Source of the DNA: an uncultured Anaerolineales bacterium
GTDB lineage: Bacteria > Chloroflexota > Anaerolineae > B4-G1 > SLSP01
Reading direction: 5' to 3'
Length of the DNA stretch: 64,000 nt
Assembly (NCBI GenBank): GCA_964612845.1
Contig: CAZTEO010000002.1
Coordinates: 1,690 to 65,689 of the forward strand
Part shown: one piece after another, positions 17,605 to 41,900 of the stretch
How positions within the stretch are numbered: the stretch's first letter is position 1
Layout: each line of letters opens with the position of its first letter
Notes under the pieces: model-generated
What the model was told of the DNA's origin: nothing
The model's input: only the letters and a program-made list of their open reading frames with translations
Databases searched by the model: none
Made by a program: the position numbers and the translations under genes

Positions 17605-17610
17605 CGCTTC

Positions 17611-18602: not shown

Positions 18603-18617
18603 CCGTAAGGAGCTTAT

Positions 18618-19286: not shown

Positions 19287-19318
19287 ACAAGAGTATCATG
19301 CTACGTTGAGGAGGATAC

Positions 19319-20386: not shown

Positions 20387-20483
20387 GGACAATCGGCGGG
20401 GGATTTGTAGAGCTAAAGGCCCTCGTCACAAGCCCTGAGACGTTAGACGCCTTCTGGCTTCTGTACGTAGCATATGTGATATG

Positions 20484-20511
20484 AAAGAGCGGCGCTTGAG
20501 CGCCGCTCTTT
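20484..20511. terminator. bidirectional rho-independent terminator between convergent genes
   Basis: AAAGAGCGGCGC (20484-20495), loop TTGA, GCGCCGCTCTTT (20500-20511). The A-run/T-run arrangement works on both strands. Confidence 0.7.
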
Positions 20512-20523
20512 GCTGTCTGAGGC

Positions 20524-21648: not shown

Positions 21649-21705
21649 GGATTTTCCTCCCTCATATCATCACTGAATGCCTATCGCTCTGCGATAGGTT
21701 AGGTT

Positions 21706-23261: not shown

Positions 23262-23503
23262 AACACCTCCTCTATGTCTTTGAGCTGTAGTATACCCCAA
23301 CGCGCGGGTAGAGGAAAGAGTGGGATAACGGCTTGGTGGTGTGCGAGAACAAAGCGCATGGCTTTCATAGAAGAGTGACTGGAATCAATTCTCTGTTGTT
23401 TTGCTCTCCATCAGTTCCGATGTATCATACGCAAGGATTAAGTATCAGTACACCTGTGTCAGTGGCGCTGGACTGCTTTTTCACCCTAGGAGCAAAATCG
23501 TAG

Positions 23504-27704: not shown

Positions 27705-28664
27705 TCATTTCACTCTTAGACGCCACCCTGCGCGGAGATAATCTCCATCCCGGGGGAGACCGCGACTGTCCCACAAGTGACCGTTCCACTTCCAGAACTG
27801 TTCCTTCGTCATGCTGTAGCGGTTGATCAACCCCCAGATGGTGTCATTTGCTGTGGCTGTCACGTATTCGGGTTGTGGAACGGTAGCTGTGGTCGTGGGT
27901 TGTCCTTCTGGTGACGAGGTGGCTTCTTCTTCACAGGGTATGCTGGCGGCTTGTAGGATAGGCCAGCACGCCTTCTCCGCCGTGACAGCGTGGTAGACAC
28001 TGAAAAAATCGACTCCATGCTCGATAATGGCTTCAACCCAGGGGATGAGATTTTCTGGTAGAAAGGGCTCGTTTGGACGCCCCCCGTAGGTGGGAGAGAG
28101 GACCGGATAGATGGCTGGAGTAGCGTTCCAGATCAAGCTCAAATCACTGAAGGATTTATAGATATCTCGATGGATCATCTGCTCTGCGTCAGGGTTCCAT
28201 TTCGGAAAGCAGAGCGGCATCCACCCACCCTGGCAGAGTGGGGCCAAAGCTTCCAGTGTCTGACGATCCGGCAGATGAAGTAAGGGCGGGGTTGCCAACA
28301 GCAGATTTGCTAAGGGTATTCCTGACGGTTCTAGTTCATCAACCAAAGGCTGGATTTGGGTCCGGGTTATCAGCGCACGTCCGAGGAAGAGCACAACATC
28401 GCTATAGCCCAGTTCGAACGCGCGTTGTATGGCATATAAAGTATCCTGTGGGCTACGATCAGTGACGTGAATCCAAGCTAAGGCACGGAATCCGAGTGTA
28501 TGCACCCGATCTAACAGTTCGGGTGCACTCTCTGGGAAGTAGAGCGGCCCATGTCCTACTTTGACAAGCAAGTAACGGGCTTCGGTCTGGGTTGCCATTT
28601 CTACGGCTCGCTGCAGATCGTAGGAATGTGCAAGCCATATCCCCTTGCCACAAAGTTCAGTCAT
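27705..28664 (-). CDS. LysM-domain protein with an N-terminal alpha/beta (TIM-barrel-like) domain of unknown family
   Basis: The C-terminal 50 aa, YVTATANDTIWGLINRYSMTKEQFWKWNGHL...GDYLRAGWRLRV, match the LysM pattern. No signal peptide or TM helix at the N-terminus. Confidence 0.6.
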   Translation of the reverse strand: MTELCGKGIWLAHSYDLQRAVEMATQTEARYLLVKVGHGPLYFPESAPELLDRVHTLGFRALAWIHVTDRSPQDTLYAIQRAFELGYSDVVLFLGRALITRTQIQPLVDELEPSGIPLANLLLATPPLLHLPDRQTLEALAPLCQGGWMPLCFPKWNPDAEQMIHRDIYKSFSDLSLIWNATPAIYPVLSPTYGGRPNEPFLPENLIPWVEAIIEHGVDFFSVYHAVTAEKACWPILQAASIPCEEEATSSPEGQPTTTATVPQPEYVTATANDTIWGLINRYSMTKEQFWKWNGHLWDSRGLPRDGDYLRAGWRLRVK

Positions 28665-28754: not shown

Positions 28755-28781
28755 CGTCGTTTACGCAGCGCGTAAACGACG
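28755..28781 (-). other. perfect 12-bp inverted repeat with a 3-nt loop spanning the stop codon of the acidic gene
   Basis: CGTCGTTTACGC (28755-28766), loop AGC, GCGTAAACGACG (28770-28781). The stop codon at 28761-28763 lies inside the stem. Confidence 0.5.
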
Positions 28782-29483
28782 CGCCAGAACAATCAGACCG
28801 ATCAGTAATCCTCCGGCGATGACCAATATCAGTTCCCCCAGGCCCGTCTCAGGCGTTTCATCTGCGGTCTCCTGCGCGGTCTCTTGCGAGGAGGTGGCGG
28901 TTGCTCGAGGGGTTCGTGTCGGTGTTGGTGAGCGTCGAGGCCGGGAGGTGGCGGTCGCTGTCGTCATGGCGGTCTCTTCGTCTTCAGCGCCTTCAGCCTC
29001 TTCTTCCTCATCACCGTCTATATCAGCTTCTTCCTCGACTTCTTCTGACGTGGCTGAAGGCTCGGGGGTCGGTGTATTTGTCGCTGCGATCACCGGCGTG
29101 TTTGTCGCTGTGGGTTCAGGTGTCTCCGTTGCGGTAGGTTCCTCGGTTTCCTCCGGCTCCCCTTCCTCTCCTGCGTCTACCTCCGCTTCAGATGGTGTTT
29201 CTTCTGAGGCAGGGGTGTTCCCGTTGACTACCATCTCCGCGATCGCGGTGTTTGTCGCCTGGATCACGGCATTGCGCGCTGATTGCTGTGCCTGCATCCG
29301 GGGATTTAATACGAGGACCCAGAGAATAAATACCCCAATGGCTAATAAGAGCAAGCCACCGAGAGCTGCCACTGCTATGAGGAAGGTCTTATTCTGAGAT
29401 TCCGCTTCTTGATCTTCAAATTCTTCTTCCTCGGGCTCCATGAAGATATCTTCGCCAAAGGCATCGCGCAGATCATCAGACAT
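28761..29483 (-). CDS. highly acidic, low-complexity bitopic protein with an LPXTG-like C-terminal sorting-signal architecture
   Basis: Acidic N-terminus, TM FLIAVAALGGLLLLAIGVFILWVLVL, and a long E/T/P-rich region. The C-terminus is ETPETG-LGELILVIAGGLLIGLIVLA-RRLRAA (motif, hydrophobic helix, basic tail). Confidence 0.55.
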   Translation of the reverse strand: MSDDLRDAFGEDIFMEPEEEEFEDQEAESQNKTFLIAVAALGGLLLLAIGVFILWVLVLNPRMQAQQSARNAVIQATNTAIAEMVVNGNTPASEETPSEAEVDAGEEGEPEETEEPTATETPEPTATNTPVIAATNTPTPEPSATSEEVEEEADIDGDEEEEAEGAEDEETAMTTATATSRPRRSPTPTRTPRATATSSQETAQETADETPETGLGELILVIAGGLLIGLIVLARRLRAA

Positions 29484-29616: not shown

Positions 29617-30669
29617 TCACAGAACGCGCTCTAGATTGGCAAACGGAATGAAAACGCGCTCCTCTTCGTCAAAGTCTATGTAAGCGCCGCGAAGTCTTGC
29701 TCCAGTCTCTACTCTAACCAACCTTGAGGGTAATTCCGATATTGTGCCTGTCATGCCCAGATAAGGGGCTCTGAGTGCGCGTACACGGTCGCCGACGTCC
29801 ACAGGCTCCTGGGGTGCAATCGGCAGGCCATTTTGCGCGGGCATAGGAATGGCGATGTAGGGTCGTTGTTTAGCACGTCTGCAGGTCATACATGCGCTTA
29901 TGGCGGCTTCGCGCCCGTCCAATGACTGCAGCAGGTCGAAGGCCGTTGCGGACATGGGAACGTCTCCAATGCCTTCAGTGGCGATAACGGGTAGCTCAAT
30001 CTCCTGGAGGCGCGGAATTAAGTCCGCCGGTATACCGCCGACGATGATGCCACGGACTTGCATCTCGATGGCTTGTTCCAGGGCTTCTTCATCTAGCGAG
30101 ACTCCCCCGACGACAATCGATCCCTGCGCCGAGGCATCTATACGGCGCGCTCGCAGCGGATGATGTGGAGCTCGAACCACCAAACGGAGCACACCGTAAG
30201 TTTCCTGATTATTACCCCATGCGGCTTGAATGAGGCCCCCGTGAGTTTGAATGATCACACCTTTTCCGGGCAGGACGTGTGTGATTCTACCGGGTACAAG
30301 GGCCGATAGCTGATAAGTCACCGGGTTGGCCTCAAGGAGAAGCCGTCCTCGCCCGTATCCTGTGACGAAGCCGGAGAAGGGGGCGCGGCAAACCCGCCCG
30401 CCCAATCCACCACGCGAGGCCAGGATCTCATTTTCTTCTATGGCGTCACCGACATCGACTTGTAGTGTACTGCGCACGCGTTTTGGGGGGAGGCTGAGAG
30501 CCCGACTCAAGTTTATGATCTGGAAATCGGGCAATTGCGTTGCTTCTGCCACGATCTGATGAGGCTCTACGGTTGCATTTGCTTCCACCAGAACGTCACC
30601 GGCTCTTGGCAGGGTGCGCTTTATCTCGATAAGGGTCAGGGGATTGATGATGCTGAACGGCAAAAGCAT
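29617..30669 (-). CDS. soluble hypothetical protein (N-terminal barrel-sandwich/lipoyl-like hybrid motif, central alpha/beta region, C-terminal KOW/SH3-like barrel); last gene of the seven-gene operon
   Basis: GGAGGA 7 nt upstream of ATG 30669, inside the end of the preceding gene. VDVGDAIEENEILASR...RVCRAPFSGFVTGYGRGRLLLE resembles barrel-sandwich hybrid motifs. No family assigned. Confidence 0.6.
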   Translation of the reverse strand: MLLPFSIINPLTLIEIKRTLPRAGDVLVEANATVEPHQIVAEATQLPDFQIINLSRALSLPPKRVRSTLQVDVGDAIEENEILASRGGLGGRVCRAPFSGFVTGYGRGRLLLEANPVTYQLSALVPGRITHVLPGKGVIIQTHGGLIQAAWGNNQETYGVLRLVVRAPHHPLRARRIDASAQGSIVVGGVSLDEEALEQAIEMQVRGIIVGGIPADLIPRLQEIELPVIATEGIGDVPMSATAFDLLQSLDGREAAISACMTCRRAKQRPYIAIPMPAQNGLPIAPQEPVDVGDRVRALRAPYLGMTGTISELPSRLVRVETGARLRGAYIDFDEEERVFIPFANLERVL

Positions 30670-30672
30670 ACG

Positions 30673-32430
30673 TTATCCTCCCACATCCCAGACCCACCGG
30701 CGTAATAGCCGGCGGCGCTCTTCAACGGCTTCTGGAAGTTCTAAGGGACGTCCTCGCCCGTCGACCACCAAGCCAACCAGTCCACCCAGAGCCTGGATTT
30801 TTCCGCCCTTTCCGGGGCCTCCTAGGCCTACGTCTATCTGTCGAGAGGGTTTGAGCTCCAACGTGGCTCGCTGACCGGGGAGAAGCGGCCAGACTTCCAA
30901 CTCGCCCTCGTGCGCTTCAACGGAGAGCTCACTGCCGTCATCGTAGTGAATCGTCATGGCTAGAATCACATCCCCTGAGCGGCCTCGCCCTACCGGAGAG
31001 ATGACCGTGCCCAGAGAGACTAGCGTGCCAGCATCCAATGCTGAGGCTGCGGCCAACGGTTTGATGGCTGCAATGGCTCCTAACGCAGGTGCTGCACGTC
31101 TGATGTCCAGTAAGATGGTAGAGATTCCTACCGGTTGGACACCATCTAGCACGGTCAACAGGGCGTGACCAGGCCGGGGCATATTCACGATGCCCCCGCC
31201 AGAGATAAGGATCGGGTCCAGTTTGGGCATCAGTTCTGGCTCGCGTGAGGCTGCCTGGCCCATCTTCCAGGTCGATTTTGCGACCTTTAGAGCCATTTGC
31301 AGCATCTCGCGCGCGATAGCTTGTTCAATCCAGAGGTCGTTTAGCGTCTGCGGTACAGTGAGCGGCTGCAAAGTTCGATTATGCAACAGCGCTTGGACTT
31401 TTGCGATTTCGATCTCTTCTGGCATCCAGTAGGCGATACGAGCCACGTTCTCCATCTCTACCCAATCTACGGAATTGTGGATAAACCCTTCTCCACCGCG
31501 AACCGTTGGGTAGAGATGGCCTTCAAAGCAGGCCATCACGGTTGTGCTCGCTGCTCCTAAGTCAATGCCCAAGGCGCCTCGATCTGGATTGTTCTCTCGG
31601 TGCCAGAGAAATTCCACCACTTGACCAAACGTGGCTGCTGTGGGTTGAAGCGCAAGATTGCTCCATGCTGCAAGCGTGTCTGTGCCTGGGGTGCGGAACA
31701 GGCTCTGCTCGATAAATTCCTGTTCTAACAATGTTTGGGCGGGTCTCAGGTATTCAACGTCCGCTGAGGGGCGGACGTTGTCGACCACATCGACCTCGGT
31801 CAGCTCTCCCAGCAATTTGGTGATTCGGCTGCGGAGCTGACTGTTGCCCGCATAGAATAGGTGGGGACGTTGGTCGCTCTCCAACATCGAAGCGCCCAGG
31901 GCAATGGCATCGGCCAACTCCATGACGGGACGGCTGGCCCCACCATCGACGCCTCCAACCAAGAGAATGGCATCAGGCGCAATATCTCGCACTGACTGCG
32001 CCCAGGCCTCCTCTGGCGAGCGGAGGCTGCCTTCACGCGAAAGCATGGTCTCGATGGTGGTGTAGGTGCCCATCGCCACGCGGTGGGCGCTTTCCAAGCT
32101 CATCTCGCGGACGAGTCCCGCCAGCACAAGCCGAAGCGGATCGGCTGCGCTGAGGATGGCTACAAACGCATCAACGCCGACGAGCCCTTCTCGTGGGGTA
32201 ACCAAGTGTCCTTCCAGGAAGAACTCTCGGCCTATGATGGCTTCGATTTCTTCTATGGCTTCGATGACGCCTGCACTGATATCTTCCCAAGGAGCCTCAA
32301 GGGTTGTCGGCGTCTCTGCTTGTGCAATGAAACGGTACTGATCCTCAACACGTTCCAGGAGCAGAACCTTGGTGGTCACTGCCCCGCAATCAGCAACGAG
32401 TATGGATTCGATGGACGTCTCTTCAGGCAT
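30673..32430 (-). CDS. GlmL/MutL-family ASKHA (actin-fold) ATPase-like protein
   Basis: ILVADCGAVTTKVLLLE (phosphate-1 pattern, as in DIGSTTTK of GlmL) and AILLVGGVDGG (as in GGTDGG of GlmL). 585 aa. Confidence 0.6.
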   Translation of the reverse strand: MPEETSIESILVADCGAVTTKVLLLERVEDQYRFIAQAETPTTLEAPWEDISAGVIEAIEEIEAIIGREFFLEGHLVTPREGLVGVDAFVAILSAADPLRLVLAGLVREMSLESAHRVAMGTYTTIETMLSREGSLRSPEEAWAQSVRDIAPDAILLVGGVDGGASRPVMELADAIALGASMLESDQRPHLFYAGNSQLRSRITKLLGELTEVDVVDNVRPSADVEYLRPAQTLLEQEFIEQSLFRTPGTDTLAAWSNLALQPTAATFGQVVEFLWHRENNPDRGALGIDLGAASTTVMACFEGHLYPTVRGGEGFIHNSVDWVEMENVARIAYWMPEEIEIAKVQALLHNRTLQPLTVPQTLNDLWIEQAIAREMLQMALKVAKSTWKMGQAASREPELMPKLDPILISGGGIVNMPRPGHALLTVLDGVQPVGISTILLDIRRAAPALGAIAAIKPLAAASALDAGTLVSLGTVISPVGRGRSGDVILAMTIHYDDGSELSVEAHEGELEVWPLLPGQRATLELKPSRQIDVGLGGPGKGGKIQALGGLVGLVVDGRGRPLELPEAVEERRRLLRRWVWDVGG

Positions 32431-32433
32431 GCA

Positions 32434-33081
32434 TCAGGCTCCGAGTGTTGGGAATAAAAGATCGATTATGAATGTCCACCAACGTTCCACTAGGATGGTG
32501 AGGGCAGATGTCAGCGCGCCAGCAAAAGCGACCCCCAGTGCTATCGCCACTATGGATTGCCCCGCCCAGCGTACACCCTTCTCAAATTTGGAAGGCTCAT
32601 GGGTTAACAGGTGGGCGTGGGGTGAAAAGGCAAAAAGTGCCAACAGGACGCCTACTATCATGAGAACGCCCTCCAAAAGAAGGCTCAAGCCTTGATCCAA
32701 CACCAGTGCTTGCCCAGTATTTACCATCTGGGGAAGCAGCGTGCCTAAAAGGGCACCGGAGATGGCAACAGCGCCTCCGACACCCAGGAGCAAGCCCATG
32801 GATATGTTACCTACGGGAGAGAGCCTTGGAAATCCCTTGAGAAGCAGGAAAAAGCCGAATATAAGTGGAGGGATGATAAACAGTGGATGTTGTTCGCCTG
32901 TTACACCGTCCATGATCCATTGAACCAGAAAGTGGGTGGTGATTGCGAAGGCATAGCCTGTGCCAACGCCTACCAACACTGCCACAGCCCAACGATAGAG
33001 TGGATTGTCTCCTAGCAGGTATCCCAAAAAGATCGTGAAGGTAAAGGCTATCCCGATCCAGCCGACAATATCCAGATTCAT
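32434..33081 (-). CDS. polytopic membrane protein (about 6 TM), unknown family
   Basis: ATG 33081 is preferred (AAGAGGAG 8 nt upstream; junction TAG-C-ATG with the upstream gene). The track start GTG 33090 is also possible. Hydrophobic throughout. Confidence 0.55.
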   Translation of the reverse strand: MNLDIVGWIGIAFTFTIFLGYLLGDNPLYRWAVAVLVGVGTGYAFAITTHFLVQWIMDGVTGEQHPLFIIPPLIFGFFLLLKGFPRLSPVGNISMGLLLGVGGAVAISGALLGTLLPQMVNTGQALVLDQGLSLLLEGVLMIVGVLLALFAFSPHAHLLTHEPSKFEKGVRWAGQSIVAIALGVAFAGALTSALTILVERWWTFIIDLLFPTLGA

Positions 33082-33082
33082 G

Positions 33083-36000
33083 CTAAGCACTCCTCTTGCG
33101 CTTGCGGAATATTAGGGAGGCTCCTGCGCCTATTAAGATCAACCCTGCAGCTACCCACTGCGTAAATGTGACGGCGTTCGCCTGTCGTGTCACATTGATA
33201 TTAGGTATGTCGCGTGCTTGCCAGTACGCCGCAGCTCCTTGAATTCCAACGAGCCAGCCATCAACTTCTGTGCTTTGCAGATACGGACGGGCCATTGGAC
33301 CGGCGGCCGCGCTGACTGCAACCCCAAGGGGGTGTGCAGCATCGCCTAAAGCTGTGTTCTGCTCTATCCACCACCGCAATCGCTCGGGACGCGCCGCGAC
33401 GACTAGTAGCAGCTCACTCTTTTCATCATTGGATGTGCTAGCCAGAAAACTCGCGACTCCGCTGCTGCCGCCCGCCCAGTAACCCAGGCTCTCAACGGTC
33501 GATGGCTCGTCCGCCAGGATAGTTTCTTCAGCCCAAGCCAGGCGCTCTTGTATCAGCGCTTCGCCAACCGGAACTGTGGTCAGAATTTGTACCTGCGCCT
33601 CACGTGCCAGGAGGTGGTCGAGTGTGGCCTCGACGAGAGATTGCATTTCGCCCGCTTCGGCCGGCCCGTATTCCAGTACCAGGGCGACGGTATCGCCAGC
33701 CTGGAGGGTGTCTACTACGGATACCAGCGACGTGACGTTGGGTTGGGTGGGCTGCGAGAAGAGGGCGTCGGGCAAAAATCCCCAAATCACAACGACCACA
33801 GCCGCACAGAGTACCAGAAGTAGTCCGGCGCGTAGCAGGCTTTCCGGCCAACGTGTCTTGGTAGGCTTTTGTCGAACGATGTGCTCTTCGCTGGGTGGGC
33901 GCTCCAGTAGCTCTTGCCAGAGTTGTGCTTCTTCAACAAGGTGGTCTGGAGGCTCGAGGCGTAGTGCCAGCTGGAAGTCCGCAGGCATATCTACCAATGG
34001 GCGCGAAGCCAGTGCGTTCTGCATCCCGCTCAAAGGGCCTTCAACCTCGGGTTCGATGATGGCTTCTGGCTCAACATCCACCGTGCGGGTAATTTCTGTC
34101 GCCTCGCCGGTCGGTCGGAGGGTCTCTACCCATTCAGGGATCTCCGCCCGGACGAGTCCCTTCTCAGTCAATTCCTCAATTTCTTCTTCTGATAGGCCAT
34201 GTTCAGGAAGGGGACCGGTCCCGGGAGGTTGAAGATTGCTTAGCCAGCTTGGCAGATCTGCCTGTTCGAGTCCCTCAGGGAGGGGCGCTTTTGAAACATC
34301 TTCGCTTTTGACAGGCGCCGGTCCCAGATCTCGCAGCCATTCTGGAATCTCGCTTTCCCCCACATCTTCAGACTCTTCCGCCATAGAAATGGGCGCTTGT
34401 TCTCTCTCTGGACGTTCCGGAGGCTCTTCTTGGATCGAGCCGGGGACTTCTCTTGCCTCAGGCTGTGTTCCTATCTCGTCTATTGCCTTTCCCTGGTCTG
34501 GGAAGGGGCTAGGTTCTGCCCGTTTTTCCTCCGCTATTTCCGTTGGTTTGAGATCTCCTAGCCAATTTGGTAGGTCCTCTGCTTGTTCTTCCAGAGATTC
34601 CGGCAGCTCGGTAGAGACTGCTACCGGTTCGGTGTCTGGACCTTCTGCTTGCATGCCAGATAGCCAGTCAGGCAGAGCTTCTGCTTCTTCCGGCTGTGCT
34701 CCTGAAGCCATTCCTTCGTCTTCGCCGGACTCTGTGATGTCGAACGGCGTAGGTTCTGCTTCATCCAGGGGCGTTTCCGATTGGGTAGTCGCTGACTCAG
34801 GTGCGCCTTGGATACTGGCGAGCCAGTCAGGGAGATCATCTTCTGTGTCCATCTCCAGCTCTTCACCGGACCCTGACATAGCAAAGGGAGCAGAAGGTTT
34901 TTCGTCCAGACCTGTTTCTGCTTCAGTCACCCCTGGCGATTCGCCTTGCACACTGGCTAACCAATCAGGGAGCTCCTCTTCCGGCTCTGCGTCTGCGGCT
35001 GGCTCCATCTCTAACTCTGGTGCTTGTGATTCGCTCTGCAGACCGGCAAGCCAATCAGGGATTTTATCTTCCGGCTCTGTCGCCGCAGCCGGCTCTATCT
35101 CTGGCTGTGTTTCTGGTGCAGGGGATTCGGCTTGCACGTCGGCAAGCCAATCAGGAAGTTCCTCTTCCGGCTCTGTGTCTGTGGCGGACTCTATTGTTGG
35201 CTGTGCCTCTGGCGCGGGCGATTCGGCCTGCAGGCCAGCGAGCCAGTTAGGGAGCTCGTCCTCTGTTTTGTCTTCTGATTCTTCTTCCGCCCTCTCCATC
35301 TCTGGGCGTGCCTCAGGTTCAGGCGCCGCTGGCGCTTGTGATTCGGTTTGTGCGTCGGCAAGCCAATCAGGGAGTTCCTCTTCTGCATCCTCTTTGGGTT
35401 GAGCGTCAGAAAGGGTCGCAGGTGCCTGCGCTTGAGCAGCAGGTTTTGGCTCAGGTGTTGTGTCTTGATCCTCTGTGAGCCAATCGGGGATTTTTCCCTG
35501 TGCGGCTTTTTCTACGGAGGGGGCCGCATGACTATCTGCGGCCATAGCCGCCAGCCAGTCTGGTGTCTCTGAAGGCGCATCTTCTATCTCGGAAGTCTCA
35601 CTATCGTCCGCAGCTAAGTCGCGTAACCAATCTGGAAACTCTCCCGTGGGTGTATCTAGCGCAGGGGCGTCCGTTTCCTCTATATGACCAGTTAACCAAT
35701 CCGGTGTTTCATCCCTTTCAGACTCTATTGGACCTCCAGGGGAGTTGTGTACTGGAACGGCAGGAGACGCTTCTTCGCTTGTTCCTACTTCGTCTGAGAC
35801 AAAAAATTCTTGTTCTGCCGAGGGGCCTCCCTCCGCATTATCTTGGTCGACGCCAGACAGCCAATCCGGCAATTCGCCTGGCGCAACCTCATCCTCGTTC
35901 TCGTCCTCCTCAACAAACGGGGGAGGGGAGGCTTTACGTTCGGCTGGCGAGGTCTGAGATGGCGTCTCATCCAGAAGTCCTTGTAGCCAATCTGGGAAGG

Positions 36001-36289
36001 TTTCATCATGAGGCCTTGGTTCACTCTCTTCGTCCGGAGATGAACGGGTTGGTAGAGAAAGTGCTTTCATTCCTACCCCGGTATCCATCACAGGATCTTT
36101 TTTCGGGGGCACCATGCCCTCTGCCGAAACCAGGCGAGCGTGACATTTGTCGCAGAAGACGCTGCCTACCGGGTTGACGGCGCCACACATGGGACACCGA
36201 ATGCGTGCGGCTTGTAATTCGCCTCCGCACTCATTGCAAAAGCGGCTACCATCTCTATTAAGCGCTCCACACTTTGAACAACGAATCAT
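33083..36289 (-). CDS. 1068-aa double zinc-ribbon protein with about 630 aa of acidic PDWL-motif repeats, then TM, outside domain, TM and a basic tail
   Basis: N-terminus has CSKCGALNRDGSRFCNECG and CPMCGAVNPVGSVFCDKCH. There are 17 P-[DNES]-W-[LV] motifs. TM helices are LLLVLCAAVVVVIWGFL and WVAAGLILIGAGASLIF, followed by RKRKRSA. Confidence 0.7.
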   Translation of the reverse strand: MIRCSKCGALNRDGSRFCNECGGELQAARIRCPMCGAVNPVGSVFCDKCHARLVSAEGMVPPKKDPVMDTGVGMKALSLPTRSSPDEESEPRPHDETFPDWLQGLLDETPSQTSPAERKASPPPFVEEDENEDEVAPGELPDWLSGVDQDNAEGGPSAEQEFFVSDEVGTSEEASPAVPVHNSPGGPIESERDETPDWLTGHIEETDAPALDTPTGEFPDWLRDLAADDSETSEIEDAPSETPDWLAAMAADSHAAPSVEKAAQGKIPDWLTEDQDTTPEPKPAAQAQAPATLSDAQPKEDAEEELPDWLADAQTESQAPAAPEPEARPEMERAEEESEDKTEDELPNWLAGLQAESPAPEAQPTIESATDTEPEEELPDWLADVQAESPAPETQPEIEPAAATEPEDKIPDWLAGLQSESQAPELEMEPAADAEPEEELPDWLASVQGESPGVTEAETGLDEKPSAPFAMSGSGEELEMDTEDDLPDWLASIQGAPESATTQSETPLDEAEPTPFDITESGEDEGMASGAQPEEAEALPDWLSGMQAEGPDTEPVAVSTELPESLEEQAEDLPNWLGDLKPTEIAEEKRAEPSPFPDQGKAIDEIGTQPEAREVPGSIQEEPPERPEREQAPISMAEESEDVGESEIPEWLRDLGPAPVKSEDVSKAPLPEGLEQADLPSWLSNLQPPGTGPLPEHGLSEEEIEELTEKGLVRAEIPEWVETLRPTGEATEITRTVDVEPEAIIEPEVEGPLSGMQNALASRPLVDMPADFQLALRLEPPDHLVEEAQLWQELLERPPSEEHIVRQKPTKTRWPESLLRAGLLLVLCAAVVVVIWGFLPDALFSQPTQPNVTSLVSVVDTLQAGDTVALVLEYGPAEAGEMQSLVEATLDHLLAREAQVQILTTVPVGEALIQERLAWAEETILADEPSTVESLGYWAGGSSGVASFLASTSNDEKSELLLVVAARPERLRWWIEQNTALGDAAHPLGVAVSAAAGPMARPYLQSTEVDGWLVGIQGAAAYWQARDIPNINVTRQANAVTFTQWVAAGLILIGAGASLIFRKRKRSA
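34976..35257 (-). repeat. three near-identical in-frame tandem units (32, 32 and 30 aa) inside the PDWL-repeat gene
   Basis: ELPNWLAGLQAESPAPEAQPTIESATDTEPEE / ELPDWLADVQAESPAPETQPEIEPAAATEPED / KIPDWLAGLQSESQAPELEMEPAADAEPEE. The DNA-level repeat is visible (ggcaagccaatcagg...tcttccggctctgt recurs). Confidence 0.8.
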
Positions 36290-36300
36290 CTGTTCACTCT

Positions 36301-36915
36301 TTACTCATCAACATACGGTCGGGTCACAAAAATCGCGCGGAGGCCGGCGATGACGCTTCCTAGCGCGACTCCCAGAAGAAGGCCACGCATACCTGCTGTA
36401 GCAAGGACGCGTTCAATCCAATTGGAGATGTCCCCCACGATGGGCAAGGGCGCTGCTCTGATCAACATGAGTACAACGACGAGCATGAATAGCAAGCTGC
36501 TGACCGTTCGCCGATTTCTTACGGCTCGGACACCTGCCGCTAGCAACGTCACGGCAGTCAGAGCCAAAAGTGCCGATTCACCTGGAACCAGCACGGCACG
36601 CATGACATTTTGTCCCCAAATCCCAATTTGACCTACTGTAAATAATTCCCACAAGATTAAGCCGGCTGTGCCCAAGGCAAAGAGAACAATGATCAGGCTG
36701 GGTATGCGCCCCCGCCCTTTGCGTTGGAGACGTTTCAGATTGGCGCGCAGTAGATTTAGGAATGCGAGTGTAAAGGCAAAACATCCCAATATCATGGCCC
36801 ACTGCAGAAGGATTATGCGGATCTCCCGTAAGGGCGAAATGGGCCAGAATGTGCCCGCCAATACAGTAAGTGCTGCTAAGACGGCAATAGCTGTTGCGAT
36901 TACACGAAGTATCAT
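36301..36915 (-). CDS. polytopic membrane protein (about 6 TM), unknown family
   Basis: ATG 36915 lies 1 nt after the upstream TAA. Hydrophobic, with the basic loop KRLQRKGRGR. Confidence 0.55.
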   Translation of the reverse strand: MILRVIATAIAVLAALTVLAGTFWPISPLREIRIILLQWAMILGCFAFTLAFLNLLRANLKRLQRKGRGRIPSLIIVLFALGTAGLILWELFTVGQIGIWGQNVMRAVLVPGESALLALTAVTLLAAGVRAVRNRRTVSSLLFMLVVVLMLIRAAPLPIVGDISNWIERVLATAGMRGLLLGVALGSVIAGLRAIFVTRPYVDE

Positions 36916-36916
36916 C

Positions 36917-37681
36917 TTACCCGATTCCTATACCTAGCGCTGCAAGCACTGCGAGCACCACAATGCCTCCTGCCACAACCCAGTGTAGGATATATTGAGC
37001 TTGTAGAGCTGCCCGATATGTGGGGTGCTGATTTGCGACCGCGCTTCCCAGAAAGTGCTCTTCTCCAATCATCAGATTTTCTTGGGAGAGGGCCGGGAAC
37101 AGAGCCGCCAGTCCTATTGGCGAGGTCGTACTTGCTTTTGTCGGTGTTTTCCGTCGAGCAGCCGTGTCGCTGATAAAGGTAGCTTCTACATCGAAGAGTC
37201 CTAACATCAGGTTGGACCCGACGCCTTTTTCGTAAAGATAAATCGAAGCCATTGCGGCGTAGATTGTGGGTGAGGGGGCAAGGAACTGGACGAGCGTCGG
37301 ACGATAGCGATCTACGTTGCCCAACCGGGCGTATGCCCGGCGCATCCAGTCATCCGCCAAGAGATAGAGTGTGGGATCACCCGTCGTGATGATAGGTGGT
37401 GTATCGTATGCAGCAGAAAGATCGGCTAAGCCAGTGATGCTCTCCAGCGCTGCAATTGACGTTATGGCGTGTTCTTGCCACAGTGACCCGCTTCCCAGCG
37501 TGGCGTGAATCAGTGTGCCCTCTTCAGCCGCGCGACCCACTTCATCGGCGAGATCAGAGAAAACGGGGATTTTCTGCGCTTCCGGCGCGTCTCCTTGATT
37601 CTGGTTGCGAAGTCCTTGGGCGAAAATAGCAATCGCAGCCAACAACAGTATCAGCAGGCCAAAAGTTGCACTTATCGTCAT
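36917..37681 (-). CDS. bitopic/hairpin membrane protein: N-terminal TM, ~200-aa domain, C-terminal TM
   Basis: ATGA overlap with the upstream gene (37678-37681). TM helices are FGLLILLLAAIAIFA and ILHWVVAGGIVVLAVLAALGIGIG. Confidence 0.55.
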   Translation of the reverse strand: MTISATFGLLILLLAAIAIFAQGLRNQNQGDAPEAQKIPVFSDLADEVGRAAEEGTLIHATLGSGSLWQEHAITSIAALESITGLADLSAAYDTPPIITTGDPTLYLLADDWMRRAYARLGNVDRYRPTLVQFLAPSPTIYAAMASIYLYEKGVGSNLMLGLFDVEATFISDTAARRKTPTKASTTSPIGLAALFPALSQENLMIGEEHFLGSAVANQHPTYRAALQAQYILHWVVAGGIVVLAVLAALGIGIG

Positions 37682-37935
37682 GGGGTGGACACCTCTTTTT
37701 CGACCAACTGATCTTGCAGACGCAGAAGTATATCGGGATTAGCGAGAGCTCGCTCTAAAGGTGCTAGGTCCTGCGTGGACATAAACGGCTCAAGTATCCA
37801 GATTGCTGGGAGTATTAGACCCTGCATCACGTAGAGAAAATCTAGCAGCGGCAAAGCCCAATCCACCAGATGGTATGTCTCTAACCATGCTTCCCACTTC
37901 CGGTAAACTTCGTCGAGAGGTAGATTTGCCTTCAC
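37678..37935 (-). CDS. 85-aa hypothetical protein, first gene of the seven-gene operon
   Basis: GTG 37935 with GGAG 8 nt upstream. One hydrophobic segment, LDFLYVMQGLILPAIWIL. Confidence 0.45.
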   Translation of the reverse strand: MKANLPLDEVYRKWEAWLETYHLVDWALPLLDFLYVMQGLILPAIWILEPFMSTQDLAPLERALANPDILLRLQDQLVEKEVSTP

Positions 37936-38082: not shown

Positions 38083-38407
38083 TATCAAATTTTGCGTATT
38101 TGTCACATAGATTGCCATCAACAGGTAACTCTATGTTTACGCGCCCTGATCTTTGCCTAAGATGTTCTCTTTTGACCAGCGGTTGCCTTCACACTGCGTC
38201 CTGAATGCATCACAGATGCTGAGGAAGTTTTCAATACTTCTTTGACGCTTCCAGTATAGCACGATTCAAAAAGGGTGTAAAGCCATTGTGAGACCACGGT
38301 TAGAAGTTCGCTGGTTCCTGGCTCTGATTTCAATACGGTGTGTCTCGTTGTTTGATAAAACCAAGACGGCGTCACTAATTGGGGCGCCAATTCGCTAAAA
38401 TTCACCC

Positions 38408-38446: not shown

Positions 38447-38519
38447 GCGGGCGTAGTTCAGTTGGTAGAACACCTCCTTGCCAAGGAGAAGGTCAAGGGT
38501 TCGAGTCCCTTCGCCCGCT
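38447..38519 (+). tRNA. tRNA-Gly (anticodon GCC)
   Basis: Manual cloverleaf: acceptor GCGGGCG/CGCCCGC, D arm GTTC..GAAC, anticodon loop TTGCCAA, T arm AAGGG-TTCGAGT-CCCTT. 73 nt, CCA not encoded. Confidence 0.9.
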
Positions 38520-38540
38520 CAAGAAGTTTCATATTGCGTG

Positions 38541-38595
38541 CCCACGTTTGAGCTGGCGTTAAGTGTGGTTTAGTTCAGAAACGTGGGTGTTTTTC
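38541..38595 (+). terminator. possible terminator after tRNA-Gly (9-bp stem, large loop, T-run)
   Basis: CCCACGTTT (38541-38549) pairs with AAACGTGGG (38579-38587), followed by TGTTTTT. The 29-nt loop makes it weak. Confidence 0.35.
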
Positions 38596-38614
38596 TACAA
38601 TATGGCTTCGGCTT

Positions 38615-38686
38615 GGCGACGTAGCCAAGAGGTAAGGCAGGGCTCTGCAAAAGCCTTATTCGTCGGTTCGAATCCGACCGTCGCCT
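38615..38686 (+). tRNA. tRNA-Cys (anticodon GCA)
   Basis: Acceptor GGCGACG/CGTCGCC, anticodon stem-loop GGGCT-CTGCAAA-AGCCT, T arm GTCGG-TTCGAAT-CCGAC. 72 nt. Confidence 0.9.
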
Positions 38687-38699
38687 TTACGCAACGTTA

Positions 38700-38729
38700 G
38701 GGCATCTATTGGAGATGCCCATTTCTTTG
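38700..38729 (+). terminator. rho-independent terminator after tRNA-Cys
   Basis: GGGCATCT (38700-38707), loop ATTGG, AGATGCCC (38713-38720), then ATTTCTTTG. Confidence 0.6.
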
Positions 38730-38733
38730 TCAA

Positions 38734-38817
38734 GGGGCGGTGGCGGAATCGGAAGACGCCGGGGACTTAAAATCCTCTACTCGAGAGAGTGTGTGGGTTC
38801 GACTCCCACCCGCCCTA
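38734..38817 (+). tRNA. tRNA-Leu (anticodon TAA), class II with a long variable arm
   Basis: Acceptor GGGGCGG/CCGCCCT (G1-U72), D arm GCG-GAATCGGAAGA-CGC, anticodon stem-loop GGGGA-CTTAAAA-TCCTC, variable arm TACTCGAGAGAGTGT, T arm GTGGG-TTCGACT-CCCAC. 84 nt. Confidence 0.85.
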
Positions 38818-38920: not shown

Positions 38921-41900
38921 ATGACGAAACTTGCGGGTTCTATCCTCATTGTAGAAACCTCTCCAGAACGTCAATTGGATTCTCATGATGTGTTGTCCCA
39001 AGCCGGCTACGATGTCCACGTGGCTAGGCTGGAGCAAAAGCCACTGGACACCGCGTTAGATCTGCAGCCCAACCTGATCTTGGTTGACGTGGGGGCGGCT
39101 AATCCAGCTATTGAGGACCTCTTTCGGCACTTAAAAGCCTGCCCGGAGTTAGATACATCCCTCATCGTCTGCTGTTGTGACCATTCCTTGGTTCAGGACG
39201 TGGCTATGTTCTCTCAGGAAGCTGATGATGTCCTTATCTGTCCTACCTCTGATGTTGCGTTGGAGTCTCGCGTTGCTACACTTCTCCATCTTCAGCAAGC
39301 GGAACAGCGTCTCCGGCGTGTGGATAGGTTTCTGCAAGCCATGGATCGGATTGCTGAGCTGATCGATTCTGTCGAAAAGCCGCAGCTCTTACTTCAGACG
39401 ACCTGCGATGCTCTGGGTGAGAGCGGTCTTTACACCCACGCTTGGATCGCTTTGCTGGATGAGGGGCAGCCTCTGACTGTTGCGTCAAACCGAGGCGAGC
39501 TGTCGGTTGAATGCTGTGAACAACTTGTGATCCGCGTGCTGGATGCGATGGACGGCGCATCTTCTCCGTCCGTCATGACGGTCGTGGTTCCACGACTTCA
39601 TTGTCTCCAGAACAAGTTGACCGCTGGGAAGGAGCTGTGGGCAGCCCCGTTGGCTAACGAGGGACAGGTATACGGTCTCCTGGCTGTGACCATTCCTGAA
39701 TTGTGGATACCCAGAGAAGAGCCTCGGCTTTTTCAGCATCTTGCGGCAGATTTGGGCGCAGCTCTCCATCGACTCCATCGGGAACGCCAGCGACGAGAGA
39801 CCAGTGTGGCCTTGCATGAGAGTGAAATGCGCTTTCGTAAGATCTACGAACATGCATCTTTCGGCATTGCCATAGTCGATCAAGCGGGGCATATCCTGCG
39901 TGCTAATCCCTTCTTCTGTGATCTGCTGGGCTATACCGAAGATGCGTTGATGAAATTGACCACAGTAGATATCACGCATCCCGATGATTGGGAGCGGGAA
40001 ACGGCTGAGGTCCAAAAACTTATGGCGGGTCAACGCTCGGTGGTGCGGTTGGAGAAGCGTTATTTGACCAAGGACGGGGCTGTCGTCTGGGTCAATTTGA
40101 CCGCTAACCTGATTTGGGATGAAGCCGGTGCGTTCAAGTTTGGACTGGGTATGGTGGAAGATATAACCGAACGCAAGGAAGCTGAAGCTCAGTTGCAGCG
40201 CCTCCTTGACCGGCAAATGGCTGTTAATCGGTTGGCGTTGGCTATCGGTGACACACAGAATCTAGAAAGAATCTATCATATCATTTATGAACATGTCGTT
40301 GAGCTGATGGATAGCCACGCTTTTATTGTCTCCACCTATGATGATGTTAAGCGTGAAATCCGGGCGGGCTATGTGATTTCCCATCACCAAGAGATTGTGG
40401 ATGTCTCAGAGTTTCCACCGTTGCCTTTGGGAGAACCAGGAAGCGGTACGCAGAGCCAAGTCATTCACAGCGGGGAGCCGCTCTATGTACCGGATTGGCG
40501 AGCAGCCATGCAAAAAGCCAACGTGGAGTACAGGGTTGCAGAAAATGGCTCAGTCCATGAAGGCCCGCCGCCGCAGGAGGATAAGGAGATTACCCAATCC
40601 GGCATTCTCGTTCCCATGAAGGTCGAAGGAAAGACCATCGGGGTATTGCAAGTCCAAAGCCATAAGAAGGATGCGTATTCCCAGGAAGATGTGGACCTGC
40701 TGGCGTCTTTGGGCAATGTTGCGGCTGTGGCTATCCAGAACTCTCGTCTGTACAACCGACTCCAGCAGGAACTCGTGGAACGCCGCCGGATAGAGAGCGC
40801 CTTACGTGAGAGCGAGGCCCGTTATCGACTACTGTTCAATAGTGCTTCCGACTCCATATTCATCCATGACCTGAACGGAAAAATCCTGGAGGTCAACCAG
40901 CGGGCCTGCGAGCGTCTTGGATACAGTCGCGAGGAGCTCCTGAACATGTCGCCGGCAGATATCGACGCGCCGGAGTATGTGGAGGAGATAGAGAAGTATC
41001 TTGAGCAAATAGGGCAACACGATCACCGGTTGATCGAGAGTGTGCATGTTCGCAAAGACGGTACACGCTTCCCCGTAGAGCTGAGCACGCGCTTCATTTA
41101 CTACAATGACCAGCCCGCTCTCTTCACAGTGGCCCGTGATATCACGGAGCGCAAGGAAATTCAGCGCCGGCTACGTCAGCAAGAACGTTTGGCTGCGGTC
41201 GGTCAACTGGCTGGGGGCATTGCGCACGATTTCAACAATCTACTGACGACTATTATCCTCTATGCGCAGATGCCACTTAGTCAGCCGGATCTCTCCCCAC
41301 GGGTGCGTCAATCTCTGGACGTTATCCAGGGCGAATCGCAGAAAGCTGCCGAACTGATCCAACAGATTTTGGATTTCAGTCGTCGCGGCATGATGAAAAG
41401 CAAGCCGGTGGATCTCAAGCCATTTATCCAGGAATCCCTGTATATGTTGAGGCGGACGCTGCCGGCAACTATCGATCTGCAGTTGAGCCTGGAGTATGAA
41501 GCGCATTACGTTGTCAACGCTGACCCCACGCGGATTCAGCAGGCCCTGATGAATCTGGTGCTCAATGCTAGAGATGCCATGCCCGCTGGTGGAAAAATAG
41601 AGATCCGCATACGGCGTCATACGTTTAGTGCGGAAACTATGCCTGTGGCTGAGATGGCGCCCGGTCGATGGGTCTCTCTGACCGTAGCTGATGAGGGAAC
41701 GGGTATCTCGGATGAGGTGTTTTCGCATCTCTTTGAGCCCTTCTACACTACAAAAGAACCGGGCGAGGGTACAGGTTTAGGGCTAGCTCAGGTCTACGGC
41801 ATCGTCAAGCTGCATCACGGCTACATCGACGTTCAGACGCGTGTCGGTGAAGGGAGCGCTTTTCACCTCTACCTGCCTGAACACGAGGGCGTTCATGCGG

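What the first reader, a model, noticed from the sequence alone, without database searches (positions are those of the whole stretch)
29617..37935. Seven translationally coupled genes with no assignable pathway: candidate novel membrane-associated machine built around an actin-fold ATPase and a giant zinc-ribbon repeat protein
All seven ORFs are on the minus strand. Their junctions are -4 nt (ATGA at 37678-37681), +1, +11, +1 (TAG-C-ATG, or -8 if the GTG start is used), +3 and +3 nt, and the Shine-Dalgarno sites sit inside the preceding genes. This argues for a single operon with co-ordinated stoichiometry. Only one product is recognisable, the GlmL-family ASKHA ATPase at 30673-32430. The others are: an 85-aa protein with one hydrophobic helix; a 254-aa protein with a TM, ~200-aa domain, TM layout; two ~6-TM proteins of 204 and 215 aa; a 1068-aa protein; and a soluble 350-aa protein. 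The 1068-aa protein has two cytoplasmic zinc ribbons, ~630 aa of acidic repeats with 17 PDWL-type motifs, and then the same TM-domain-TM layout plus a KRKR tail. The 350-aa protein has a barrel-sandwich-like N-terminus and a KOW/SH3-like C-terminus. There are no transporter, secretion-ATPase, peptidoglycan-synthesis or known cytoskeletal signatures. The parts list is a nucleotide-driven actin-fold protein, a multivalent cytoplasmic scaffold anchored in the membrane, and four dedicated membrane subunits. This suggests an envelope-associated assembly with a morphogenetic, trafficking or membrane-remodelling role. That functional reading is inference only. Genes for a surface-type acidic protein and a LysM protein follow on the same strand.
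Basis: partly seen in the sequence, partly recalled or inferred. Interest (0 to 1): 0.85.

Follow-up and report, generated by a model that had tools for sequence, protein, structure and literature searches.

The report
Conserved membrane complex with ASKHA ATPase
These seven tightly packed genes are a real, strongly conserved gene set found in at least four bacterial phyla; they pair an actin/Hsp70-superfamily ATPase, mislabelled "glutamate mutase L", with membrane proteins that match nothing characterised, so they probably encode an undescribed membrane machine.

Summary
Seven minus-strand ORFs (29617-37935) have junctions of -4, +1, +11, +1/-8, +3 and +3 nt, and the described domains and 17 PDWL motifs are present.

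The set is conserved. The order g2-g3-g4-g5-g6-g7 recurs in every sufficiently long locus of 58 Chloroflexota (Anaerolineae-type) genomes, down to 31% identity. Profile HMMs find all seven families, rearranged as g1-g6-g7-g2-g3-g4C-g5, in metagenomic contigs. Close relatives of those proteins are named Planctomycetota (including cultured Rubinisphaera margarita), Zixibacteria and Fidelibacterota.

In those lineages g4 is only about 290 aa. The zinc ribbons and PDWL repeats are therefore an Anaerolineae add-on, not the core. The membrane block g2-g3-g4C-g5 is often duplicated or triplicated beside a single g6-g7 pair.

Only g6 (PF13941, GlmL branch of ASKHA), g2 (DUF6754) and the zinc ribbons match Pfam. 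Nothing matches PDB sequences, PADLOC or the literature searched. No B12 mutase gene was seen in the loci whose genes were annotated.

Best reading (inferred): g6-g7 is a soluble ATP-driven engine serving one or more membrane modules, for transport or force transmission at the envelope. I rate novelty as categorically new and interest at 0.7.

The parts
37678..37935 (-). g1: 85-aa small hydrophobic protein, GTG start
   Evidence: ORF. Hydrophobic helix at residues 27-45. An ORF family containing it was found in 37 Anaerolineae-type loci (alignment of 22 orthologues). Profile-HMM homologues lie upstream of g6 in L063 and L064 (E = 6e-5 and 2.5e-5) and in other distant loci.
36917..37681 (-). 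g2: 254-aa DUF6754 protein, laid out as TM, ~210-aa alpha/beta-type domain (predicted cytoplasmic), TM
   Evidence: Pfam PF20539, E = 8e-20; all 26 orthologues tested hit it. The Fidelibacterota-type homologue scores 403 bits and carries an N-terminal fn3-like region before the first TM, which places the DUF6754 domain in the cytoplasm. E53, G55, G63, G161, E166, G206 and E207 are invariant across phyla. No PDB relative.
36301..36915 (-). g3: 204-aa protein with about 6 TM helices; no known family
   Evidence: Hydropathy. No consistent Pfam hit among 28 orthologues and no PDB relative. Homologues in distant loci: E = 3.6e-37 in L063. R177, G182 and G186 are invariant across phyla.
33083..36289 (-). 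g4: 1068-aa protein (whole gene)
   Evidence: ORF. Orthologues of about 390-1200 aa occur in 55 loci; the shortest are cut by contig ends.
36134..36289 (-). g4 residues 1-52: two zinc ribbons (C4/C7/C18/C21 and C32/C35/C46/C49); lineage-specific
   Evidence: Pfam Zn_Ribbon_1 at 8e-11 and DZR at 2e-9. Present in most full-length Anaerolineae-type orthologues. Absent from the 293-aa L063 homologue.
34121..35995 (-). g4 residues 99-723: acidic, proline-rich region with 17 PDWL-type motifs; lineage-specific
   Evidence: Motif list and composition. Orthologues carry 0-21 motifs. The stretch 34938-35254 is a 90-96 nt tandem array. The motif does not occur in any real ORF elsewhere in the window.
33086..33829 (-). 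g4 residues 821-1068 (g4C): TM, ~200-aa predicted external alpha/beta domain, TM, basic tail. This is the conserved core of g4
   Evidence: Hydropathy. Y116, E123, G151, W216-x-E218-Q219, Y245, Y264 and G296 are invariant (numbering of the 310-aa fragment). Stand-alone homologue in L063 at E = 3.5e-28. The structure model is poor (pLDDT 52) and shows only a beta-alpha-beta pattern with weak vWA/Rossmann-like matches.
32434..33081 (-). g5: 215-aa protein with about 6 TM helices (ATG 33081 preferred; alternative GTG 33090); no known family
   Evidence: No Pfam hit and no PDB relative. The DNPxY motif, Q118 and R200 are conserved across phyla. L063 homologue at E = 1.5e-35.
30673..32430 (-). g6: 585-aa ASKHA ATPase of the GlmL/MutL (PF13941) branch, with an extra ~120-aa C-terminal beta-rich domain and a conserved tail
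   Evidence: PF13941 at E = 5e-66 over residues 10-465. NCBIfam GlmL models score far below cut-off: 90 against 475 bits. Nucleotide-site residues D14, G16, T20, G159-G160, G164, D290, G292 and G411, and the C-terminal D557-x-R559-G560-R561, are at least 95% conserved in 96 sequences from both lineages. The tail RRxxLxxW[ILV]WDVGG is near-invariant in most Anaerolineae-type loci.
29617..30669 (-). g7: 350-aa soluble partner with a barrel-sandwich-hybrid beta region (~1-165), a small alpha/beta domain (~184-258) and a KOW/SH3-like domain (~271-350)
   Evidence: AlphaFold model, pLDDT 87.7. Foldseek gives no whole-chain match; there are domain-level matches to KOW proteins and to AF_0055/Rv3853 swivelling-type domains, and weak ones to NqrA/RnfC. 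RnfC_N, KOW and NQRA_N hits occur in 12-14 of 26 orthologues. The family has 2780 clusters at 50% identity with E <= 1e-3 and 813 with E <= 1e-30.
28761..29483 (-). g8: 240-aa associated surface protein with an acidic N-terminal tail, TM, Pro/Thr/Glu-rich stretch and an LPXTG-like signal (TPETG + TM + RRLRAA). Probably a separate transcript
   Evidence: Follows g7 in 46 of 59 Anaerolineae-type loci, with gaps of 37-570 nt. N-terminal tail and sorting signal are conserved. TIGR01167 scores 13.8 against a 15.9-bit cut-off. A promoter-like site lies at 29565-29537. Not found in the distant lineages.
38253..38281 (-). Promoter-like site (TTTACA-17-TATACT, with TG) about 320 nt upstream of g1
   Evidence: Consensus scan only. 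No Rfam element in the leader.

Best explanation
The seven genes encode one conserved, multi-subunit system at the cytoplasmic membrane.

Shown:
- The same seven protein families travel together in Chloroflexota (Anaerolineae-type) genomes and, in a different order, in contigs whose proteins have close relatives named Planctomycetota, Zixibacteria and Fidelibacterota.
- g6 is a GlmL-branch ASKHA protein with an intact nucleotide site.
- g7 is its near-constant neighbour.
- g2, g3, the C-terminal part of g4, and g5 form a four-gene membrane block. That block can be present in two or three diverged tandem copies beside a single g6-g7 pair.

Inferred mechanism:
- g6 and g7 form a soluble ATP-driven engine. 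It docks on the cytoplasmic DUF6754 domain of g2, which has three invariant glutamates.
- The engine drives a step through the g3/g5 transmembrane core. That step could be transport or translocation of a substrate, or transmission of force or conformation.
- The external alpha/beta domain of g4, with invariant Tyr, Glu and Trp-x-Glu-Gln residues, handles the step on the outside. The process most likely concerns the cell envelope.

In the Anaerolineae-type lineage, g4 gained a cytoplasmic arm of zinc ribbons plus 4-21 acidic PDWL motifs. I infer that this arm recruits or concentrates the soluble parts. Candidate binding partners are the basic/aromatic C-terminal tail of g6 and the KOW domain of g7.
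For: - Synteny and tight junctions are conserved in 58 genomes, down to 31% identity of g7.
- All seven families are recovered by profile HMMs in L063, in the order g1-g6-g7-g2-g3-g4C-g5. The same order is the commonest in 80 metagenomic loci.
- In those loci g6 lies directly upstream of g7 in 34 of 43 informative cases. A full membrane block lies downstream in 14 of 28 informative cases.
- Tandem membrane blocks are 40-58% identical to each other and share one g6-g7 pair.
- The nucleotide-site residues of g6 are at least 95% conserved across both lineages.
- g6 is about as conserved as ribosomal protein L19 in the same loci, for example 64% against 69% in L001.
- Polar residues are invariant in g5, g3, g2 and g4C.
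- Topology follows from charge distribution and from the fn3-like N-terminal region on distant g2 homologues.
- Envelope context: an LPXTG-like surface protein and a LysM protein lie downstream in Anaerolineae-type loci. TolQ and TolR-like genes lie directly downstream of g7 in eight Zixibacteria-type loci.
- There is no match to any known transporter, secretion, defence or cytoskeletal family.
Against: - No physical interaction, substrate or ATPase activity has been shown. The mechanism rests on gene content, topology prediction and analogy.
- No ASKHA ATPase is known to energise a bacterial membrane transporter.
- g3 and g5 match no transporter fold or family.
- The g4C model is unreliable (pLDDT 52).
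- In about half of the informative distant loci the membrane block is not next to g6-g7, and some g7 homologues stand alone. The parts may therefore also work separately.
- The envelope link is only neighbourhood evidence within single lineages.
Confidence: 0.45

Rival explanations
1. Cytoskeletal or morphogenetic scaffold. g6 polymerises like an actin homologue on the membrane. The PDWL repeats of g4 act as a multivalent tether or nucleator. The complex positions cell-wall or division machinery.
For: g6 belongs to the ASKHA superfamily. g4 carries 17 evenly spaced short motifs in a disordered acidic arm. LysM and surface-protein genes lie downstream. Tol genes are adjacent in Zixibacteria-type loci. 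The only PDB sequence hit of the g6 profile, though insignificant, is PilM (E = 0.17).
Against: g6 sits in the GlmL/hydantoinase branch, which from my own knowledge includes no known filament former. The repeat arm is absent outside the Anaerolineae-type lineage, so it cannot be the core mechanism. Several diverged membrane blocks per g6-g7 pair fit an engine with modules better than a scaffold. No similarity to MreB, FtsA, ParM or their partners was found.
Confidence: 0.15
2. Membrane-bound enzyme or cofactor-maintenance complex. g6 acts as its named relatives do, either as a GlmL-type chaperone or reactivase or as a hydantoinase-type ATP-dependent enzyme. Its target is an enzyme or a lipid-soluble substrate held by the membrane proteins. 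The DUF6754 domain, with its three invariant glutamates, is the catalytic partner.
For: PF13941 membership. GlmL/MutL is described as a chaperone that reactivates glutamate mutase (PMC4682846). Acidic residues are invariant in g2 and g4C. The barrel-sandwich and swivelling-type domains of g7 are typical of multi-enzyme complexes.
Against: No B12 mutase or other recognisable enzyme gene appears in the window or in the loci whose genes carry Pfam annotation, and no further gene family recurs beside the module in the other loci. g6 scores far below the GlmL equivalog cut-offs. g7 has no invariant Lys, His or Cys that could carry a cofactor or phosphoryl group. Two 6-TM proteins and an external domain are not explained by this reading.
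Confidence: 0.2
3. Transmembrane signalling device. The external g4 domain senses an envelope cue, and g6-g7 act as a nucleotide-dependent cytoplasmic output or switch.
For: The architecture has an external domain linked by TM helices to cytoplasmic partners. Zinc ribbons and repeat arms are common in membrane-anchored regulators (my own knowledge). The g7 KOW domain resembles those of NusG/Spt5.
Against: No DNA-binding, kinase, cyclase or sigma/anti-sigma domain was found. Very high conservation and two dedicated 6-TM proteins are unusual for a sensor. The zinc ribbons are lineage-specific.
Confidence: 0.1
4. The genes are unrelated neighbours, or some ORFs are not real genes, and the tight packing is coincidence.
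For: None beyond the absence of functional data.
Against: The same families are kept together across at least four phyla in two different orders. Orthologue lengths are constant and junctions are tight.
Confidence: 0.02

Closest known systems
GlmL/MutL, accessory protein of coenzyme-B12 glutamate mutase (Pfam PF13941; NCBIfam NF040745, TIGR01319)
   Same: g6 residues 10-465 match PF13941 at E = 5e-66. They carry the ASKHA phosphate-1, GGxDGG, phosphate-2 and adenosine-site residues. Public annotation already calls a homologue 'glutamate mutase L'.
   Different: g6 scores 90 bits against a 475-bit equivalog cut-off. No glmS/glmE or other B12 mutase gene was seen in the window or in the annotated related loci. 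g6 has an extra conserved C-terminal domain of about 120 aa. It is always encoded with g7, and usually with membrane proteins.
Membrane-tethered ASKHA proteins with bitopic partners (PilM-PilN-PilO; FtsA with FtsN/FtsZ peptides)
   Same: The logic may be shared: an ASKHA protein is held at the membrane by short cytoplasmic peptides of membrane proteins. Here the candidates are the PDWL motifs of g4 and the acidic tail of g8 (inference).
   Different: Sequence similarity is at superfamily level only (PilM E = 0.17). There are no PilN/O, secretin, pilin or FtsZ-linked genes. The tether arm is absent in most lineages.
NqrA/RnfC, peripheral subunits of the Na+-NQR and Rnf complexes
   Same: g7 begins with a barrel-sandwich-hybrid domain that weakly hits RnfC_N and NQRA_N in 12-14 of 26 orthologues, followed by an alpha/beta domain. 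It is encoded with ~200-aa 6-TM proteins, as NqrA is with NqrD/E.
   Different: Foldseek probability for NqrA/RnfC is only 0.08-0.12. g7 has no flavin, NADH or Fe-S motifs. g3 and g5 do not match the Rnf-Nqr family. g7 ends in a KOW domain.
Systems with one energiser and several membrane modules (ECF transporters; Mce transporters sharing the MceG ATPase; TonB-ExbBD)
   Same: One g6-g7 pair sits beside two or three diverged copies of the g2-g3-g4C-g5 block.
   Different: The energiser is an ASKHA protein, not an ABC ATPase or a proton-driven motor. No component is homologous. This is an analogy from my own knowledge, not a test.

Membership tests
GlmL/MutL (glutamate mutase accessory protein) | PF13941 domain with ASKHA nucleotide-binding motifs | tested here: met
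   E = 5e-66 over residues 10-465. Motif residues are conserved.
GlmL/MutL (glutamate mutase accessory protein) | Score above the NCBIfam equivalog or subfamily cut-offs (NF040745 475 bits; NF040744 600; TIGR01319 204) | tested here: not met
   Scores of 90, 93 and 57 bits, covering only the N-terminal half.
GlmL/MutL (glutamate mutase accessory protein) | Encoded next to a B12-dependent mutase (glmS/glmE or an aminomutase) | tested here: not met
   No such gene in the window or in the loci with Pfam-annotated genes. In the remaining loci, ORF clustering shows no further recurrent neighbour family, but individual neighbours were not annotated.
Actin-like cytoskeletal proteins (MreB, FtsA, ParM, MamK) | Sequence membership in one of those families | tested here: not met
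   No Pfam or NCBIfam hit other than MutL/GlmL. The profile search against PDB gives only PilM at E = 0.17.
Actin-like cytoskeletal proteins (MreB, FtsA, ParM, MamK) | ATP-dependent polymerisation into filaments | not testable with these tools
   Needs biochemistry or imaging.
PilM-PilN-PilO type inner-membrane platform | PilN/PilO-family bitopic partners and neighbouring pilus genes | tested here: not met
   No such families among the seven products or their neighbours.
Rnf / Na+-NQR complexes | Rnf-Nqr family membrane subunits and flavin or Fe-S binding motifs | tested here: not met
   g3 and g5 have no Pfam hit in 28 orthologues each. g7 has only weak N-terminal-domain hits and no invariant Cys.
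Known transporters (ABC, MFS, RND and others) and secretion ATPases | A recognisable permease or P-loop/AAA+ ATPase family | tested here: not met
   None found in Pfam, NCBIfam or PDB sequence searches.
Anti-phage defence systems | Match to a PADLOC model | tested here: not met
   Zero hits for all seven proteins.
DUF6754 (Pfam PF20539) | Score above the gathering threshold (27 bits) | tested here: met
   g2 scores 71.5 bits, and 26 of 26 orthologues hit. The L063 homologue scores 403 bits. The family itself has no known function, and no paper mentions it.
Sortase substrates (LPXTG proteins), for the neighbouring g8 only | C-terminal LPXTG-like motif, hydrophobic helix and basic tail | tested here: inconclusive
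   The pattern [TL][PS][EDQ]TG + TM + ARRLR is conserved in most orthologues. TIGR01167 scores 13.8 against a 15.9-bit cut-off. No sortase gene was sought genome-wide.

The most novel reading that the evidence does not exclude
This is a previously unrecognised class of bacterial membrane machine. Its energiser is a GlmL-branch ASKHA ATPase with a barrel-sandwich/KOW partner, rather than an ABC, AAA+ or P-type ATPase. The engine serves one to several interchangeable four-protein membrane modules made of families with no known relatives. The system is present in at least Chloroflexota, Planctomycetota, Zixibacteria and Fidelibacterota. It is currently hidden behind the annotations 'glutamate mutase L' and 'hypothetical protein'.
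Probability: 0.4. Interest if true: 0.85.

Novelty: categorically new. Interest (0 to 1): 0.7.

Why it matters
If the reading is right, a widespread and strongly conserved membrane system has been overlooked. The g7 family alone has 813 clusters at 50% identity with E <= 1e-30.

The system would add a new way of coupling ATP to a membrane process. It would also give a role to four or five protein families that currently have no annotation, and it would correct the systematic 'glutamate mutase L' mislabel.

A g7 homologue exists in a cultured planctomycete, Rubinisphaera margarita (WP_238753883.1). The question may therefore be open to experiment, rather than confined to uncultured Anaerolineae-type bacteria.

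Tried and rejected
- Paralogy of g2 with g4C and of g3 with g5 was tested by hhalign. Probabilities were 6% and 0.5%, so it was rejected.
- g6's C-terminal domain shows no homology to g7, g2 or g4C.
- Sequence and profile searches of PDB for g2, g3, g5, g6 and g7 gave nothing significant, even with cross-phylum alignments.
- The whole-chain Foldseek search for g7 gave domain-level matches only.
- The structure of the g4 external domain could not be trusted. The homologue search returned just 2 proteins, so the model is poor (pLDDT 52). Its vWA/Rossmann-like matches are not reliable.
- No riboswitch or other Rfam element lies in the leader. In particular there is no cobalamin riboswitch that would have tied g6 to B12.
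- No PADLOC hit was found.
- Literature searches for DUF6754, PF13941, PF20539, 'glutamate mutase L' with Planctomycetes, and Anaerolineae with actin-like found nothing relevant.
- The first genome scan with a 26-sequence alignment failed because it had no conserved stretch. It was repeated with 10 sequences.
- A link between the number of PDWL motifs and the g6 WDVGG tail looks suggestive. It is confounded by phylogeny and has exceptions (L047, L048), so I do not rely on it.

Full report
**1. Observation**

The window carries seven minus-strand ORFs at exactly the stated coordinates. Their junctions are -4 (ATGA), +1, +11, -8 or +1, +3 and +3 nt. Shine-Dalgarno-like motifs lie inside the upstream gene for g2, g5, g6 and g7, and they are weaker for g3 and g4. 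The spacing favours ATG 33081 as the g5 start, giving 215 aa.

g4 has two zinc ribbons and 17 PDWL-type motifs in an acidic, proline-rich region. Part of that region is a 90-96 nt tandem array. It is followed by a TM helix, a ~200-aa domain, a second TM helix and a KRKRSA tail. Hydropathy agrees with one helix in g1, two in g2 and about six each in g3 and g5.

**2. What each product is**

- **g6.** It is PF13941 (MutL/GlmL) at E = 5e-66 over residues 10-465. It falls far below the NCBIfam GlmL cut-offs, at 90 against 475 bits. It carries an extra C-terminal domain of about 120 aa.
- **g2.** It is Pfam DUF6754 (26 of 26 orthologues).
- **g7.** It has no family. A confident AlphaFold model (pLDDT 87.7) shows a beta-rich N-terminal region, a small alpha/beta domain and a C-terminal beta domain. 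Foldseek finds no whole-chain match. It does find KOW proteins, swivelling-type alpha/beta domains (AF_0055, Rv3853) and, weakly, NqrA/RnfC. Orthologues repeatedly give weak RnfC_N, NQRA_N, Biotin_lipoyl and KOW hits.
- **g1, g3, g5 and the g4 C-terminal part (g4C).** None has a Pfam, NCBIfam, PADLOC or PDB-sequence relative, even with family profiles.
- **Internal relationships.** g2 is not detectably related to g4C, nor g3 to g5.

**3. Conservation within Chloroflexota**

g7 has hundreds of homologues of constant length, all named Anaerolineae or Chloroflexota where a name exists. A scan of species-representative genomes returned 58 loci, all from Chloroflexota MAGs. Their record names include Anaerolineae, Thermoflexia, Ardenticatenales and, for two, Chloroflexia.

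Every locus long enough has g2-g3-g4-g5-g6-g7 in the same order and strand, down to 31% g7 identity. The junctions are similarly tight. g6 is about as conserved as ribosomal protein L19 in the same loci.

An acidic surface protein, g8, follows in 46 of 59 loci after a 37-570 nt gap. It has a conserved acidic N-terminal tail and an LPXTG-like sorting signal.

**4. The system is much wider**

Distant g7 homologues led to loci L063 and L064. Profile HMMs built from the Anaerolineae-type families recover all seven families in L063, in the order g1-g6-g7-g2-g3-g4C-g5. E-values run from 7e-157 for g6 to 6e-5 for g1. The L063 g6 protein shares a 90%-identity cluster with an NCBI protein named 'glutamate mutase L [Fidelibacterota bacterium]'.

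Among the 80 loci kept:
- The commonest arrangement is the L063 order.
- g6 lies directly upstream of g7 in 34 of 43 informative loci.
- A full membrane block lies downstream in 14 of 28 informative loci.

Exact-sequence look-ups place the g7 homologues in clusters that include Rubinisphaera margarita (WP_238753883.1), Planctomycetaceae, Phycisphaerales and candidate division Zixibacteria.

Two facts from these loci change the picture:
- The g4 homologue there is much shorter. It is 293 aa in L063, with no zinc ribbon and no PDWL arm, and its ORFs are mostly about 280-345 aa elsewhere. The 'giant zinc-ribbon repeat' is therefore a lineage-specific addition to a conserved TM-domain-TM core.
- The block g2-g3-g4C-g5 occurs as two or three tandem copies, 40-58% identical to each other, next to a single g6-g7 pair. 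In other loci g6-g7, or g7 alone, stands apart.

**5. Topology and conserved residues**

In L063, g2 has an N-terminal hydrophobic stretch and a weak fn3 match before its first TM helix, and basic residues follow that helix. This places the DUF6754 domain in the cytoplasm.

In g4, the residues before TM1 and after TM2 are basic, so its ~200-aa domain is external.

Residues conserved across phyla:
- g2: E53, E166 and E207.
- g5: a DNPxY motif, Q118 and R200.
- g3: R177, G182 and G186.
- g4C: Y116, E123, W216-x-E218-Q219, Y245 and Y264, invariant among the Anaerolineae-type orthologues aligned.
- g6: nucleotide-site residues and a C-terminal DxRGR motif.

Anaerolineae-type g6 also ends in a near-invariant RRxxLxxWxWDVGG tail.

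**6. Mechanism**

*Shown.* This is one conserved gene set. It combines a soluble pair with an intact ASKHA nucleotide site and a four-protein membrane block that has domains on both faces of the membrane.

*Inferred.* g6-g7 is an ATP-driven engine that serves one or several membrane modules, for transport, translocation or force transmission at the envelope. The pattern of one engine with several diverged modules recalls ECF, Mce/MceG and TonB logic. That comparison comes from my own knowledge and is an analogy only.

*Envelope context.* It is suggested by the g8 and LysM genes in Anaerolineae-type loci. In eight Zixibacteria-type loci, TolQ (E = 2e-29 to solved TolQ) and a TolR-like gene lie directly after g7.

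*The PDWL arm.* It most plausibly recruits the soluble parts. This is untested.

*Rivals.* A cytoskeletal scaffold, a membrane-bound enzyme or reactivase complex, and a signalling device are all less well supported but not excluded.

**7. Comparison with what is known**

g6 is a member of the PF13941 family. It fails the equivalog score and the gene-context features that define GlmL. GlmL itself is described as a chaperone that reactivates glutamate mutase (PMC4682846). No membership test for actin-like cytoskeletal proteins, PilMNO, Rnf/Nqr, known transporters or defence systems is met.

No paper in the library mentions DUF6754, PF13941 or PF20539.

**8. Verdict**

I rate it categorically new as a system, with its function still inferred. 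Interest is 0.7.

Noticed in passing
window 28761-29483 (-); orthologues in 46 of 59 Anaerolineae-type loci: The g8 surface protein has a conserved acidic cytoplasmic tail (MSDDLRDAFGEDIF), a TM helix and a Pro/Thr/Glu-rich stretch. It ends in an LPXTG-like signal, [TL][PS][EDQ]TG + TM + ARRLR. If processed by a sortase, it would be anchored in the membrane at one end and to the wall at the other.
   Followed up: partly
window 27705-28664 (-): A 319-aa protein with a C-terminal LysM domain follows g8. It is kept there in 16 related loci, followed by rplS (L19) and a class-I glutamine amidotransferase or peptidase C26 gene.
   Followed up: partly
L091, L094, L097, L109, L118, L122, L130, L138 (Zixibacteria-type loci): g6 and g7 are separated by an extra ~270-aa gene with hydrophobic N- and C-terminal segments. 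They are followed directly by TolQ (E = 2e-29 to solved TolQ) and TolR-like genes, and in L097 by a TolA/TonB-like gene.
   Followed up: partly
L096, L098, L107, L109, L111, L112, L127: The four-gene membrane block g2-g3-g4C-g5 is present as two or three tandem copies beside a single g6-g7 pair. Copies compared in six of these loci are 40-58% identical.
   Followed up: yes
L061 10001-11119; L062 7468-8580; also L110, L114, L133, L140: Full-length g7 homologues stand alone. No g6 or membrane block lies within 10 kb.
   Followed up: partly
L063 2249-2716 and 14 other non-Anaerolineae loci: A ~155-aa membrane protein with a weak bacterial PH-domain hit lies just upstream of g1 in the rearranged version of the module.
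   Followed up: no
window 34938-35254: A 90-96 nt (30-32 aa) tandem array at 74% identity lies inside the PDWL region of g4. This shows that the repeat arm grows by recent tandem duplication. Orthologues carry 0-21 motifs.
   Followed up: yes
window 38447-38817 (+): Three tRNA genes (Gly-GCC, Cys-GCA, Leu-TAA) lie divergent from the operon. A promoter-like site for the operon lies at 38281-38253, which would leave a leader of about 320 nt with no Rfam match.
   Followed up: partly
window 38921-42313 (+): A 1130-aa hybrid histidine kinase with PAS, GAF, HisKA, HATPase and receiver domains. It is not conserved next to the operon in related loci.
   Followed up: no
window 12918-23300: A DUF2298 membrane protein (835 aa) is followed by polysaccharide-type genes (Wzz-like, AAA_31 tyrosine-kinase-like, nucleotidyl transferase, GT4 glycosyltransferase). 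FtsK (51307-53670) and a large radical SAM protein (42412-44922) lie elsewhere in the window.
   Followed up: no
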